This document shows, in pieces, positions 2,115-50,084 of a DNA stretch of 64,000 nt. The translations under genes and the position numbers were made by a program. The stretch is taken from contig OX597830.1 of the NCBI GenBank assembly GCA_951406725.2, forward strand, positions 33,604,001-33,668,000, written 5' to 3'. The notes under the pieces were generated by a model, which was not told the origin of the DNA, did not search any database, and saw nothing but the letters and a program-made list of their open reading frames with translations. The stretch is from Octopus vulgaris (Eukaryota). Position 1 is the stretch's first letter. Every line of letters begins with the position of its first letter.

Positions 2115-2475
2115 TATAAGAGTGTATAAAATATTTTTATACACAAAACGGAGACCATTGACAGGACTCCTTACATGCTAAAACAGCTAGTTAAAGCCCA
2201 AACCAAGAAAAAGAGAATTCATGAGGCATCTACATAATTGTTCATTAATTAGCAATTCTGCTGATGAGCTACAGATTCCAAATTAGTATATTTGGCAATT
2301 AATAGCAAAACTCGAGTTTGGGATTAACTAATTCATTTTTGTTCATTCTAGTGTTATAACAACATGCCTCATGAATTCTCTTTTTCGAGGTTTGGGTTTT
2401 AACTGGCTTTTTTATCATGTAAAGAATCCTGTCAAAGATCTCCTCTCCAGGTATTAATTATTATACACGCTTATA
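2115..2475. mobile_element. Fold-back element with ~110 bp imperfect inverted arms enclosing a hammerhead motif
   Basis: 2151-2229 (gagaccattgacaggactcc...gaattcatgaggcat) is the reverse complement of 2364-2442; outer tataagagtgtataa / ttatacacgcttata. Confidence 0.8.
2254..2325 (+). ncRNA. Type I hammerhead ribozyme motif, G12 mutated to A
   Basis: AAUUCUG-CUGAUGA-GCUA..UAGC-(A)AA-AC UCGA GU-U-UGGGAUU; stems I, II and III all pair. Confidence 0.7.
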
Positions 2476-2591
2476 TTTTTAAAAATATGTTGTCTTATGA
2501 CTTTTATTTATGCATGCTAACCACTGGTAATAAATTTTTTAAATTTATTTTCCTCATATTTATGATATAGATATGTATATATATTCTATTA

Positions 2592-2985
2592 TTCTTTTAT
2601 TCTTTTACTTGTTTCAGTCATTTGACTCTGGCCATGCTGGAGCACCACCTTTAGTCGAAGAAATCAACCCCAGGACTTATTCTTTGTAAGCCTAGTACTT
2701 ATTCTGTCAGTCTCTTTTGCTGAACTGCAAACTGATGGGGATGCAAACACATCAAAATCGGTTGTCAAGAGATGGTGGGGGAAGAAACACATACATACAT
2801 ATGTATATATATATATATATATATATGATGGGTTTCTTTTAGCTTCCATCTACTAAATTCATTCACAAGGCTTTGGTCAGCCAGACACTATAATAGAAGA
2901 CATTTACCCAAGATGCCATGCAGTGAGACTGAACCTGAAACCTTGTGGTTGGGAAGCAACCTTCTTACCACACAGCCACAAGCCA
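2592..2985 (-). mobile_element. SINE family A
   Basis: Colinear with 6891-7310 in reverse. Confidence 0.9.
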
Positions 2986-3764
2986 CATACTGATTGGTCA
3001 AAATACAGTTAGATCTTAATTGGCATGCTGACCAATCTGATATCTAACTCATGTGCTGATTAGTCAAAATACAGCTTATAAGATTCAGTTGTCAATTACA
3101 GAACATAATTGTCATGACATAAACCTGATGATTGTGTGAAAGTACTATTTTATTTCAATATTGTTAAATTGCAAAAATTGCAAATAATAAAATGTGAAAG
3201 TTAGACTTAGTTGGAATTCCAATGATTAATATATATATGTGTGTGTGTGTGTGAGAGTATAAGTGTGTGTGGGACGTTATCACTATGTTTGCCCCAAAAG
3301 ATTGGAGTGTTAATATTACTCCTTGTGCAAATGTTTTTTTTTTAAATGCTAATTTTTCTTTTGCTTTCTTTTTTTTTTCTCACTACTTGTGTAGTTTCGA
3401 TTTTAATTAACTGAAAGAACAGAATTATTGCCCTTTCCTGGTTTGATCAGATTTAAGCATTGCTTCAGTGTTTATGTGTCCTCAGGGCCGGAAGAGTCTT
3501 GATTAATTGAAGTTTACTGGCATGCTACATTAATCATGTTAGCACTGGCATGTGTGTGTGTGTGTGCATGTGAGTATGTATTAAAGTATTAAATCTTCTA
3601 CATTTGTAAAATAATAACTTGCGATGGTAAGAAAATATCGACCCATGGAAAGAAATGAGCAATGCATATCTTTTACCACCAGGGAAATTTGCCTTAAAGC
3701 ATTTTTTCTGATGCAATAATGATTTCACCAGTGTGCTCCCCTCAATACTATTTACAAGGCTTCA

Positions 3765-4200
3765 GTAATAGTAGTAGTAGTAGTAGTAGCAGCATCAGCA
3801 GTAGCAGTAGTAGTAGTAGTAGTAGTTGTAGTAGCAGCAGAAGCAGCAGCAGCACTAGTAGTTGTAGTAGCAGCAGCAGTACCTGTAGTGGTAGTAGTAG
3901 TAGTAGTTGTAGTGGCAGCAGCAGCAGCAGTAGTAGTTGTAGTAGTAGCAGCAGCAGCAGCAGTAGTAGTTGTAGTAGTAGCAGCAGCAGTAGTAGTACC
4001 AGTAGCAGCAGTACCAGTAGTGGTAGTAGTAGTAGTGGTAGTAGTAGTAGTAGTAGCAGTAGCAGTACCAGTAGTAGTAGCAGCAGCTGTACCAGTAGTA
4101 GTAGTAGTAGTAGATGTAGTAGTAGTAGTAGTAGTAGTAGTAGTAGTAGTAGTAGTAGTAGTAGTAGTAGTAGTAGTAGTAGTAGTAGTAGTAGTAGTTC
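3765..4200. repeat. (AGT/AGC)n trinucleotide microsatellite
   Basis: Direct; explains the poly-S/V/Y ORFs. Confidence 0.97.
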
Positions 4201-4244
4201 TTTCTGCTATAGTGGTGGTGATGGTGGTGGGACTTACTCAATTA

Positions 4245-47134: not shown

Positions 47135-47892
47135 TTACTCTTTTCTTCTTTTATTCTTTTACTTGTTTCACTCATTTGATTGTGGCCATGCTGGAGCACT
47201 GCGTTAAAGGGTTTTTGTGGTCACAGAAACCAACCACAGGAGTTATTCTTTACAATCCTAGTACACAAATGTACATACACATAAATATATATATATATAT
47301 ATACATATATATATATATATGTATATATTTATGTGTATGTCTACTTTTTTTTAATACTGTTAAATATTGTCAATTATTTCTAAATGTATAGTTTAATTAT
47401 AATGTCTTCATTTATGTTCTAAATTCATTTTATGTTATTTAGACCTGAAGAGTGGCTATGTATTGTTGGATCGAAGAAATACTAATTTTTGAGATTATCC
47501 ATTTTGATATTGTCTATTTAAATATATTGTCATGAAATGCATGTTGTCGTTTTAATGTGTGTTATTTAGTATAGTAACTTTTAGTACAATATTAATAATA
47601 TATTTCAATTTATATTATATTATAGATAATATCTTTCATTATTAATTGAATTACTTTATGGAGGTTCTGTTTCTTAATTACACACACACACACATATATA
47701 TATATATATATATATATATACACACACACAAACACATGATGAGCTTCTTTCAGTTTTCTGCCTACCAAATCTTTTCAGAAGGCTTTGATTAGCCCAAGGC
47801 TACCATTGAAGACACTTGCCCAAAGTGCTATACAGTGAACCCAGAACCATGTGGTCAAGAAGCAAGCTTCTTACCACACAGCCATGCCTGGG
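47135..47892 (-). mobile_element. SINE family A split by an AT-rich hammerhead-bearing insert (~47340-47680)
   Basis: Tail half at 47135-47265, head half at 47715-47892. Confidence 0.75.
47442..47548 (+). ncRNA. Type I hammerhead motif with an extended stem II
   Basis: GAC-CUGAAGA-GUGGCUAUGUAUU..AAUAUAUUGUCAU-GAA-AU GCAU GU-U-GUC. Confidence 0.65.
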
Positions 47893-48361
47893 CCAAGTAA
47901 CGTTAAATATGTGTTGAGGAAAAAAAGCTCAACATAATCAATTTGTTAGAGATTAAGATATTTTTTTTATTTTGCATCAGCAAGTATGGGAGATAACTTG
48001 AAACATTTCAGCCTTGTTGAGAATCTTCAGTAGAAATCTTATCTAACTGTACCTACTAAATTACGTATGACGGAGTCAATAAATAACTATTCAAAACTGG
48101 ATATTGTTTGGAGAGTGAGAGGGATGTAGGGTGAGAGAAATAGTAAGACTTATGAGTGGCAAGGAAGAAATCATTGCCCTTTCATTTTATTTGCCATATT
48201 GAGATTGGTATTAACAAGGTCTGCAATCTTCAAAGATGCACCGAAGAAATGGTGTGCTGTTGTCGTCATTTGTCTGTGAAAACAAAATGACATATTTGTA
48301 GATATGGCTCACTGGAAGCTGTTTACCTCTGGATTAAATTCAATAATCCAGCATTATTACA

Positions 48362-49015
48362 GGTATGGCTGTGTGGTTAAGGAGTTCACTTCTCAACCAT
48401 ATGGTTTCAGGTTCAGTACCACTACACGGCACTTTGGGTAAACGCATTCTACTAAAGCCTTCATCCTACCAAATCCTTGTGAGTGGAACAGAACTGATAG
48501 CTGGAAGTTGAAAGAAGCCCATAATATTTCTATGTGTGCATGTGTGTGTGTATAAGTGTGCATATGTGTGTGTGTGTGTGTGTGTGCGTGTGTGTGTGTG
48601 TAAGTGTGCATATGTGTGTGTGTGTGCGTGTGTGTGTGTAAGTGTGCATATGTGTGTGTGCGTGTGTGTGTGCATGTGTGTGTGTGTAAGTGTGCATATG
48701 TGTGTGTGTGCGTGTGTGTGTGTGTAAGTGTGCATATGTGTGTGTGTGTGTGTGTGTGTGTGCATGTGTTTGTGTGTGTCTTTTTCCTTGCCTTGACATC
48801 ATGCAATGGCTGCAAATAAGCATTATCATCAAGCAAGCATTGCCCCTCGTTTGCAGTCTTCTGTGAAAACTTATCCAGCTATGAGGATAAAATTCCCTTG
48901 CTTAGAAACAGCTGAAGGTTGGTGATAGGAAAGGCATTTGTCTGTAGAAAACCTGCCTCACCGTATTTCACCAGACCCATTCAAACTCAGATAAGTGGAT
49001 GCTAAAGCACGATTA
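48362..49015 (+). mobile_element. SINE family G with an expanded internal (TG)n-based repeat (48530-48780)
   Basis: Head tggctgtgtggttaag..ggttcagtacc; tail ggttggtgataggaaaggcat..gaaaacctgcctc. Confidence 0.8.
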
Positions 49016-49829
49016 TGTATGTAGATATCAAATCAGCTGGGAATAGAGCTAAAGGAAGCTCCAATATTTTCACCATTAATCAGAAGTTAGATTAAAATAG
49101 AAGCCATGGCATTAAGATCTTATCTGTTATTAGGCTGATGAGGACAGATACTGTGACACGTTAATTTTAGTCAAGACACAATGAAATGAGCCAACAAGTG
49201 AGTCTTTCCATGGTTGTTTAATATGCTAAAAATAGGAACCAAATTTTCCTCAAATTGCATTGGTAGGCTTATCGGATAATGAAACCTGGTACATACCTGG
49301 TACATATTAAAGTGGTGATCATTACATTAATGCTTCTGACTACAAAACCATTCAATCAAGGTTGATCCAGGGCTAAACAACATAACTACCTGGAAGAAAT
49401 AGCAGCTAAATGTCCTTCGAATGACATCTATCCAGCTCTTTTGAAAAAATCAAAAGGACATATTGGCCAAAACTACATTAACTTGTTCTAATGTTTCCAT
49501 TGAGGCTACATGCCTTGTGAAGGCATATAGCCAAGGGGGTCAGTATTTAACTTCCAGATGAAACAATGCATGCTGTTCTAGAGCAAACCATTTCATATCA
49601 CATTGCTCCAATCCAACCAGCTAAAAATGAGGACAAGCAATGGTTATGTGTATGACTTTGTGGTGAACAGGTACTCCATTGAGGGAGAGAGTATGGTCCT
49701 CTTGGTTACATATATAGATAAATACACACACATACACACATAAACACACATCACCCCTCCATACACACCACATATACATACATATACACACACAAATATA
49801 CACTCGCACTCACATACACACACACACAC

Positions 49830-50084
49830 ATGCTTTATTAATAAAACTGCAAAGACATCACAAAAACTATTACTCAGAGTTTCACATTCCCATTTGTTAG
49901 AAAGTTGGGGTTGAGAATGGAACTAAGATAAGGTTATATGTATAAATATACAATTGAATAATTGTATATTTACACATATAACTTTATTTTTGTTCCATTC
50001 TCAGCTAAAACTATCTGATGAACGCGAATGTGAAACTCTGAGTAACAGCTGTTGTGATATCTTTGAGCTTTATTAATAAAGCAT
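49830..50084. mobile_element. Palindromic Penelope-like repeat, ~126 bp arms, 4 nt loop
   Basis: Centre caatt-gaat-aattg at 49951-49964; ends atgctttattaataaa / tttattaataaagcat. Confidence 0.88.
50009..50050 (+). ncRNA. Type I hammerhead motif, intact core, GUA site
   Basis: AACUAU-CUGAUGA-ACG CGAA UGU-GAA-ACU CUG AGU-A-ACAGCU; decayed mirror copy on the minus strand at ~49864-49906. Confidence 0.68.

What the first reader, a model, noticed from the sequence alone, without database searches (positions are those of the whole stretch)
2115..50084. At least 8 unrelated non-coding repeat families share a minimal hammerhead fold, often in fold-back elements: candidate octopus ribozyme-retroelement system
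Seen: hammerhead topology (stem I, NUGANNA, stem II, GAAA, tiny mostly palindromic stem III, UH) at 2254, 13591, 14648/39256, 21235/21306/25433/40218, 21770, 30490, 47442 and 50009, in sequences otherwise unrelated to each other. Five families occur as inverted-arm elements and three insertions have 12-13 bp TSDs. Established: Penelope-like elements (PLEs) and retrozymes carry minimal type I hammerheads with a palindromic loop III that can cleave as dimers, and PLEs often form inverted partial terminal repeats. Inference: these are non-autonomous PLE derivatives, at about one motif per 5 kb here. No PLE RT or GIY-YIG ORF is visible in the window. I cannot tell whether these families are already catalogued.
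Basis: partly seen in the sequence, partly recalled or inferred. Interest (0 to 1): 0.8.

Follow-up and report, generated by a model that had tools for sequence, protein, structure and literature searches.

The report
Penelope-type hammerhead relics in octopus DNA
This stretch of octopus-like DNA holds about eleven worn copies of a small RNA fold predicted to cut itself (a minimal hammerhead), in short repeats that are likely the left-over ends of Penelope-type jumping genes; the arrangement is known from other animals, and the one unusual point is a repeat family with two core letters swapped (G3-C8).

Summary
The observation mostly holds. Eleven of the 12 listed sites are recognisable minimal type I hammerheads (8 clear, 3 moderate) in seven sequence groups; 47442 is unsupported. 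With the published consensus, 5 sites deviate at no more than one feature (0.07 expected, 0 of 200 shuffles); none is perfect. Read majorities restore the core of family C and stem II of family D. Five groups are fold-backs; in four insertions one arm carries an extra 30-65-nt tail, and three have 12-bp target duplications. These are the published marks of Penelope-like element (PLE) insertions. The family-C core also sits just behind PLE GIY-YIG genes in other animals, with an inverted arm at 14 of 53 motifs. No PLE ORF is in the window, no tandem retrozyme array, and no cleavage pile-up in two RNA runs. So this is a known class in a new host, not a new system. Unusual: family D keeps G3-C8 in 4 of 4 copies, a pair I found in print only as a lab mutant; the scan's unchecked notes saw G3-C8 before in phage and protist DNA, but had no note on these families.

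The parts
2113..2476 (.). Group A fold-back, arms about 2115-2250 and 2330-2475; no TSD found
2254..2327 (+). Hammerhead A: CUGAUGA core at 2261, long stem II, G12 read as A, palindromic CTCGAG stem III
13498..14172 (.). Family B copy 1: fold-back, right arm split by a later SINE (about 13684-14102), 59-nt tail on the right arm only (14114-14172); exact 12-bp TSD at 13486-13497 and 14173-14184
13587..13637 (-). Hammerhead B (moderate): U3-A8 core at 13626, damaged stem II, palindromic AAATTT
14600..15049 (.). Family C copy 1: hammerhead arm on the minus strand with internal (AAT)n, inverted arm from about 14929 with a deleted half-hammerhead and a ~31-nt tail; 12-bp TSD with one mismatch at 14588-14599 and 15050-15061
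14648..14693 (-). Hammerhead C1: CUGAUGA core at 14688 plus unpaired A
21159..21498 (.). Family D copy 1: near-perfect fold-back (94.6%) in (TA)n, both arms with a hammerhead, ~64-nt tail on the right arm only (21435-21498)
21235..21285 (-). Hammerhead D1a: G3-C8 core (GUGAACA) at 21278
21306..21356 (+). Hammerhead D1b: G3-C8 core at 21313, G12 read as A
21770..21813 (-). Hammerhead E (moderate): U3-A8 core at 21809, GAAG box, palindromic CTAG; about 10-bp inverted ends near 21735 and 21851
25415..25623 (+). Family D copy 2, solo arm with G3-C8 hammerhead at 25433-25483, ending in (TA)n
30420..30543 (-). Group F: 124-bp insertion with hammerhead at 30490-30529 (CUGAAGA core); possible 12-bp TSD with one mismatch
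39005..39355 (.). Family C copy 2: inverted arm 39005-39112 with ~30-nt tail, hammerhead arm 39113-39355 without tail (hammerhead 39256-39301); exact 12-bp TSD at 38993-39004 and 39356-39367
39433..39640 (.). Family B copy 2: tail-bearing arm on the minus strand starting at the GAAA box, short inverted arm
40078..40292 (-). Family D copy 3, solo, in (TA)n; G3-C8 hammerhead at 40218-40268; 5' end pairs with two downstream segments and the 3' end
49831..50083 (.). Group H symmetric fold-back (82.7%); hammerhead relics at 50008-50051 (+) and 49863-49906 (-) (moderate)
47443..47557 (+).

Best explanation
These repeats carry decayed minimal type I hammerhead motifs, inverted arms, one-sided tails and 12-bp target duplications, and are likely the non-coding terminal-repeat (pLTR) ends of several Penelope-like element lineages, likely copied by PLE reverse transcriptase encoded elsewhere in the genome. 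Steps: (1, inferred) an uncut RNA holding the hammerhead and 70-200 nt behind it is bound by a PLE RT/GIY-YIG protein; (2, inferred from PMC11167929) the protein nicks both target strands about 12 nt apart, or within (TA)n, and starts cDNA at either of two fixed internal sites, one tail-length apart; (3, products shown, route inferred) two cDNAs primed from opposite strands join head to head, which gives a fold-back whose arms end at different fixed points inside one TSD, while a single cDNA gives a solo copy; (4, shown) copies then decay, often at CpG, which hits G12 in CGAAA. The hammerhead would cut only as a dimer through its palindromic stem III or with protein help, in the source element; in symmetric fold-backs it is predicted to be buried. 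Family D (about 210 bp, shared ends) and probably C would spread as non-autonomous units.
For: Enrichment over shuffles. Family C majority from 2 DNA-type and 2 RNA runs restores a 5-bp stem II, G10.1-C11.1, GAAA and the palindrome AACGTT (tables 3 and 7). Family D majority changes at 40235, 40237 and 40247 restore stem II pairs; stem I is paired in 28 of 28 cells of 4 copies. Two fixed 3' ends in C: a shared continuation behind 39352 and unrelated flanks behind 39355 (table 7), matching tail on one arm only in C1, C2, B1 and D1; this tail is described as a PLE signature (PMC8557442, PMC11167929). 12-bp TSDs. The family-C core recurs in 119 metagenome loci; in 20 chosen for distinct families, stem I, which was not in the search pattern, covaries at 4 of 4 pairs (0 of 500 shuffles). 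PLE-protein matches lie upstream in sense at 11 of 83 such motifs and downstream in sense at 2 (7 of the 11 loci helped build one profile and L035 repeats L034; L037 and L051 also hit the independent profile, and L051 hits Pfam GIY-YIG at E 3e-4, below its cut-off). 14 of 53 such motifs have an inverted copy of their downstream sequence upstream, and L034 is a fold-back around a GIY-YIG-like fragment. Penelope is among the abundant repeat families of coleoids (PMC8967140).
Against: No PLE RT or GIY-YIG remnant in the window (best E 0.44 with two profiles; none among 150 of 236 ORFs scanned with Pfam), so no family here is tied directly to a PLE ORF. The 11 upstream matches are mostly one family from similar samples. 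Covariation among the 4 D copies does not exceed shuffles (242 of 500). No place where many RNA molecules begin or end at the predicted cuts in 2 RNA runs (table 6; fragmented libraries are insensitive to this). Cleavage is untested. Tails of 59-64 nt (B, D) are longer than the 30-40 nt in print. A and H show no TSD and no clear tail. Shared 5' starts rest on 2 copies (C) and 4 arms plus low-depth read rows (D).
Confidence: 0.8

Rival explanations
1. All copies are just 5'-truncated ends of autonomous PLEs; there are no separate non-autonomous families. Same mechanism, different source RNA.
For: PMC4209133 reads most solo minimal hammerheads as truncated PLEs. Depth falls toward the 5' end of D (table 2). 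B copy 2 and the inverted arms start at varied points.
Against: Four D arms start within about 25 nt upstream of stem I, and reads show D abutting (TA)n at 40285-40294; both C copies start within about 10 nt, upstream of an internal microsatellite; no arm reaches coding sequence.
Confidence: 0.35
2. The families are dispersed monomers of non-LTR retrozymes: tandem hammerhead units cut, circularise and are reverse-transcribed from circles.
For: Retrozymes occur in molluscs (PMC7229834), derive from PLE pLTRs and leave dispersed monomers (bioRxiv 10.64898/2026.07.22.740005). D has retrozyme-like size and a closed fold (z = -2.06, 7 of 200 shuffles).
Against: No tandem unit holds a hammerhead; no backward joint among the 15 joints shown of 186; motifs are the minimal PLE type; inverted arms with tails are PLE insertion marks.
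Confidence: 0.1
3. The fold-backs are MITEs of DNA transposons and the hammerhead look is a by-product of hairpin-rich, AT-rich sequence.
For: D3 has a 10-bp terminal inverted match in TA context; true mariner and hAT relics lie in the window.
Against: Scrambled cores give 0-2 hits on the same sequence; arms end at unequal fixed points; TSDs are 12 bp; the C core is shared with PLE-linked loci of other animals.
Confidence: 0.04
4. The motifs are kept by the host as working ribozymes that regulate octopus transcripts.
For: High density; families C, B and D are well covered in 2 RNA runs.
Against: No window copy fits the consensus fully; reads lie equally on both strands and no ends pile up at the cuts; fold-back copies are predicted to be buried.
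Confidence: 0.04

Closest known systems
[quoted passage not shown]
   Same: Core boxes, unpaired base between 9 and 10.1, G10.1-C11.1, palindromic 15.2-16.2, U3-A8 variant, many families per genome, mostly solo, opposite-strand pairs 100-700 bp apart; molluscan examples (Lottia, Crassostrea) in its supplement
   Different: No octopus in the text or in the supplement searched; no G3-C8 core in the alignment part I read; no ORF linked here
Canonical PLE insertions (Penelope/Poseidon, Neptune; Craig et al. 2021, PMC8557442; Frangieh et al. 2024, PMC11167929)
   Same: Inverted 5'-truncated copy, tail on one end, variable TSD, microsatellite targeting
   Different: No RT/GIY-YIG ORF, no direct tandem pLTR; tails of B and D are about 60 nt, not 30-40
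Putative non-autonomous PLE derivatives such as Chlamydomonas MRC1 (PMC8557442)
   Same: Short, non-coding, PLE-type ends
   Different: Those often form head-to-tail arrays and have known autonomous partners; no partner identified here
Animal non-LTR retrozymes (PMC7229834; bioRxiv 10.64898/2026.07.22.740005)
   Same: Non-coding, hammerhead-bearing, PLE-related, 200-350 nt
   Different: Retrozymes are tandem units that give circular RNA; these are solo or inverted

Membership tests
Minimal type I hammerhead motif (PLE type) | N3-U-G-A-N-N8-A box with a 3-8 base pair, and GAAA box | tested here: met
   C3-G8 in A, C, F, H; U3-A8 in B, E; G3-C8 in 4 of 4 D copies; individual copies damaged; not met at 47442
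Minimal type I hammerhead motif (PLE type) | Stem I open, stem II closed by G10.1-C11.1 after one unpaired base | tested here: met
   C and D majorities, F; A has the pair without the extra base; H lacks the pair; B and E damaged
Minimal type I hammerhead motif (PLE type) | Palindromic 15.2-16.2 / loop 3 before UH | tested here: met
   A, B, C majority, D, E, F; H palindromic but for one central base
Minimal type I hammerhead motif (PLE type) | Self-cleavage, as dimer or with protein help | not testable with these tools
   No end pile-up in 2 RNA runs, an insensitive test
Autonomous Penelope-like element | ORF with telomerase-like RT and GIY-YIG endonuclease | tested here: not met
   not filed as autonomous PLEs
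Autonomous Penelope-like element | Direct tandem pLTRs | tested here: not met
   No direct tandem copies in the window
PLE-derived insertion | Inverted 5'-truncated copy at the 5' end | tested here: met
   A, B1, B2, C1, C2, D1, H
PLE-derived insertion | Tail on one end only | tested here: met
   C1, C2, B1, D1; two 3'-end classes in reads for C; unclear for A, H
PLE-derived insertion | Variable-length TSD or insertion into microsatellites | tested here: met
   12-bp TSDs for B1, C1, C2, perhaps F; (TA)n for D
PLE-derived insertion | Sequence match to the pLTR of an autonomous PLE in the same genome | not testable with these tools
   No genome held; only the core motif linked to PLE ORFs in other animals
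Non-LTR retrozyme | At least two consecutive tandem units each with a hammerhead | tested here: not met
   (window only)
Non-LTR retrozyme | Circular RNA | tested here: inconclusive
   No backward joint among 15 of 186 joints shown
MITE of a DNA transposon | Matched terminal inverted repeats with a short fixed TSD | tested here: not met
   Unequal arm ends and 12-bp TSDs for B and C; D3 alone has a 10-bp terminal match in TA context

The most novel reading that the evidence does not exclude
Family D is a high-copy, fixed-ended, non-autonomous Penelope passenger of about 210 bp whose hammerhead carries a natural G3-C8 core, a swap I found in print only as an engineered, partly active rescue mutant. 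It would show that selection kept the 3-8 pair through a double change in an animal retroelement, and octopus genomes, with several such families and one relic per ~6 kb, would be a large natural record of two-ended PLE priming (two fixed arm ends inside one TSD).
Probability: 0.45. Interest if true: 0.45.

Novelty: new member of a known kind. Interest (0 to 1): 0.3.

Why it matters
It adds cephalopods to the animals rich in PLE-type minimal hammerheads and gives these octopus repeats a likely class. Two points are useful to specialists. First, family D is a natural G3-C8 test case for whether PLE hammerheads are under selection to cut, an open question because cutting was not needed for insertion in vitro (PMC11167929). 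Second, four insertions whose two arms end at two different fixed points inside one target site fit the two internal start sites and two-strand extension seen in vitro, and can be counted genome-wide. It is not a new ribozyme class or a new kind of element.

Tried and rejected
No whole genome is held, so no genome-wide scan or partner search. First descriptor without the unpaired base found 1 strict site. Rfam: no hammerhead model on the family-C regions; the window-wide list shown was dominated by microsatellite hits to miRNA models. ARAGORN: no tRNA. Family D pattern in metagenome contigs: 0; family C specific pattern in genome and viral contigs: 0. No nucleotide similarity between the masked window and the 119 loci. 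Run search: no RNA holder listed. The covariance model from 20 outside loci ranked the two C copies first (E 2e-4, 6e-4), but its pattern came from family C, so this is partly circular; it gave nothing significant for A, B, D, E, F, H. Homodimer folds of single copies did not cleanly give the active dimer and are not used as support. The CTGATGA at 13553 (+) is not a hammerhead: the family majority has other letters there. 10-12-bp repeats around 47442 are within chance for such AT-rich DNA (my estimate). Sites 23385-, 30693+, 18512-, 11273+ are not in repeat families seen here and were left unresolved. Searches of the scan's notes by sequence and place found nothing. Not in print, searches: hammerhead ribozyme + Penelope + octopus: 2 papers, 1 listed, whose Octopus mention concerns Naiads; G3-C8: only engineered variants in the passages read; 0. 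Lunse et al. 2016/2017 (PMC5785218), the largest survey of such variants, is not held; Dfam and Repbase could not be checked; supplement file 1 of PMC4209133 and the bioRxiv supplements were not seen. Any of these may already list G3-C8 or these families.
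Full report
SETTING. The window is AT-rich animal DNA (35% G+C; 13,014 bases masked as short tandem repeats; CpG observed/expected 0.36 outside them) full of SINE-like repeats. No genome is held, so outside evidence came from one read lay, two metagenome scans and papers.

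OBSERVATION. I read all 12 coordinates. Eight are clear minimal type I hammerhead relics (A 2254; C 14648, 39256; D 21235, 21306, 25433, 40218; F 30490), three are moderate (B 13591, E 21770, H 50009), and 47442 has only a CUGAAGA box. The published consensus (PMC4209133, suppl. Fig. S3), widened to any Watson-Crick 3-8 pair, gave 0 perfect sites, 5 with at most one deviation (0.07 expected) and 11 with at most two (1.67 expected), 0 of 200 shuffles each. So the motif is real and enriched, and every copy is damaged. Several changes are of the CpG type (G12 read as A in A and D1b; CG read as TG in stem III of C1 and C2). The groups' downstream flanks share only 9-mers. A, E, F and H are single insertions here.

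FAMILY MAJORITIES. I laid two contig sets (organisms A and B) and two raw RNA runs (organism D) on 39204-40310 at 80% likeness. For C, the loose-end consensus in all four runs restores the unpaired A, a 5-bp stem II closed by G-C, GAAA and the palindrome AACGTT. For D, majority changes at 40235, 40237 and 40247 restore stem II pairs. In runs X1 and X2 the one C>G and three C>A majority changes counted are all among the rows shown and none is at 40261, so neither C3 nor U3 reaches 25% there; A3 cannot be excluded from the 68 hidden rows, but 4 of 4 window copies have G3 and C8. Summed word depth is about 10^6 over C, B and most of D (2 x 10^5 over the D core) against about 40 in a neighbouring bin; the tool warns this is no copy number, and I take from it only that the families are abundant in more than one organism label. 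Reads were chosen by likeness to one copy, which biases toward similar copies.

ANATOMY. A, B, C, D and H are fold-backs. In C1, C2, B1 and D1 the two arms stop at different points: one arm carries an extra ~30 nt (C), 59 nt (B) or ~64 nt (D). Reads confirm two 3'-end classes for C: a shared continuation behind 39352 and unrelated flanks behind 39355. B1 and C2 sit in exact 12-bp TSDs, C1 and perhaps F in 12-bp pairs with one mismatch, D in (TA)n. The inner junctions differ between copies of a family, so fold-backs formed at separate insertions. Sense arms start at shared points: within about 10 nt in two C copies, upstream of an internal (AAT)n or (AAT)n(AAC)n run; within about 25 nt of stem I in four D arms, with reads showing D abutting (TA)n at 40285-40294. 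The solo D3 folds with the hammerhead intact on top of two long-range stems (z = -2.06). In the symmetric fold-backs D1 and H the hammerhead is predicted to be wholly paired to the other arm (0 internal pairs), so the fold-back is unlikely to be the working form.

LINK TO PLEs. No RT or GIY-YIG remnant is in the window. The family-C core pattern found 120 stretches in metagenome contigs, 119 held as loci, none similar to the window beyond the motif. In 20 loci chosen for distinct families, stem I, absent from the pattern, covaries at 4 of 4 pairs. PLE-protein matches lie within 1.5 kb upstream in sense at 11 of 83 motifs, upstream antisense at 5 and downstream in sense at 2; the 11 are mostly one family and partly circular, but L037 and L051 also hit an independent profile and the ORFs of L012 and L034 end 53-67 nt before the motif. 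L004 has an RT plus GIY-YIG ORF 3 kb upstream. At 14 of 53 motifs with enough flank the downstream sequence recurs inverted upstream, and at 5 in direct orientation. So the motif, its position and the fold-back habit are generic PLE traits.

MECHANISM. Shown: motifs, arms, tails, TSDs, decay. From the literature: a purified lizard PLE protein nicks and extends both strands, starts at two adjacent internal sites that define the tail, does not need hammerhead cleavage, and its hammerhead cuts only with protein; C3G/G8C partly restores cutting (PMC11167929). Minimal PLE hammerheads cut weakly and only as dimers (PMC4209133). Inferred: these octopus repeats were made by such a protein acting on short hammerhead-bearing RNAs, with priming from both strands giving fold-backs with unequal ends. 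Whether the RNAs came from non-autonomous masters or from full PLEs is open; I put non-autonomy for D at about 0.6.

AGAINST. No direct tie of any family to an octopus PLE ORF; no covariation signal among 4 D copies; RNA reads lie equally on both strands with no end pile-up at the predicted cuts, as also reported for the lizard element; no tandem arrays.

COMPARISON AND NOVELTY. I found no paper on octopus hammerheads and no natural G3-C8 in the passages read, but the largest variant survey was not available and repeat databases were not checked. The scan's unchecked notes report G3-C8 motifs in phage and protist DNA. Verdict: new members of a known kind; interest 0.3.

PAPERS, WHAT I SAW. PMC4209133: main text parts 1-2 of 4, supplement file 2 part 2 of 3 and a term search (file 1 not searched). 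PMC11167929: parts 1-2 of 4. bioRxiv 10.64898/2026.07.22.740005: part 1 of 5 and passages. PMC8557442, PMC7229834, PMC6765202, PMC3088659, PMC3884650, PMC8967140, PMC8969392: passages only. Lunse et al. (PMC5785218): only its citation in PMC6765202. Hammerhead numbering, the label 'SINE' for the interspersed repeats and the B-box idea are from my own knowledge, not from a call.

Noticed in passing
window 26843-27589: Mariner-type MITE-like element with 180-bp inverted arms and a Mos1 HTH_48 match at 27260-27469 (-)
   Followed up: partly
window 15560-16141 (+) and 63365-63559 (-): hAT dimerisation-domain relic and a Transposase_1 relic
   Followed up: no
window 62394-62786 (-): C2H2 zinc-finger exon with an Octopus vulgaris homologue
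   Followed up: partly
window 52483-53052: A SINE-like repeat, dispersed elsewhere in the window, here in 2.9 tandem copies of 185 bp; no hammerhead hit
   Followed up: no
window 32611-32833 and 50247-50465: Repeat pair in which a GAAA box precedes a CTGATGA box (permuted order) in copy 1; not kept in copy 2
   Followed up: partly
window 14907-14935 (-) and 39113-39133 (+): Family C sense arm begins at a weak polymerase III B-box-like motif upstream of its internal microsatellite; could mean a tRNA-headed PLE passenger, but ARAGORN and Rfam found no tRNA
   Followed up: partly
window 48994-49187 (-): U2 snRNA-like Rfam match, 38.6 bits, below the gathering score of 46; possible pseudogene
   Followed up: no
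window 23385 (-), 30693 (+), 18512 (-), 11273 (+): Further descriptor hits outside the repeat families seen here; may be older relics or chance
   Followed up: partly
window 39293/39321: An opposite-strand joint seen in both RNA runs (138 and 110 reads) and one contig: another fold-back junction of family C or one expressed locus
   Followed up: no
L004:8022-10028 (-) and L014: PLE ORF with a CxxCxxC linker ending about 3 kb upstream of the hammerhead, an unusually long gap
   Followed up: no
window 41445-41510: Small fold-back with an 11-bp direct repeat at 41435 and 41510; no hammerhead hit
   Followed up: no
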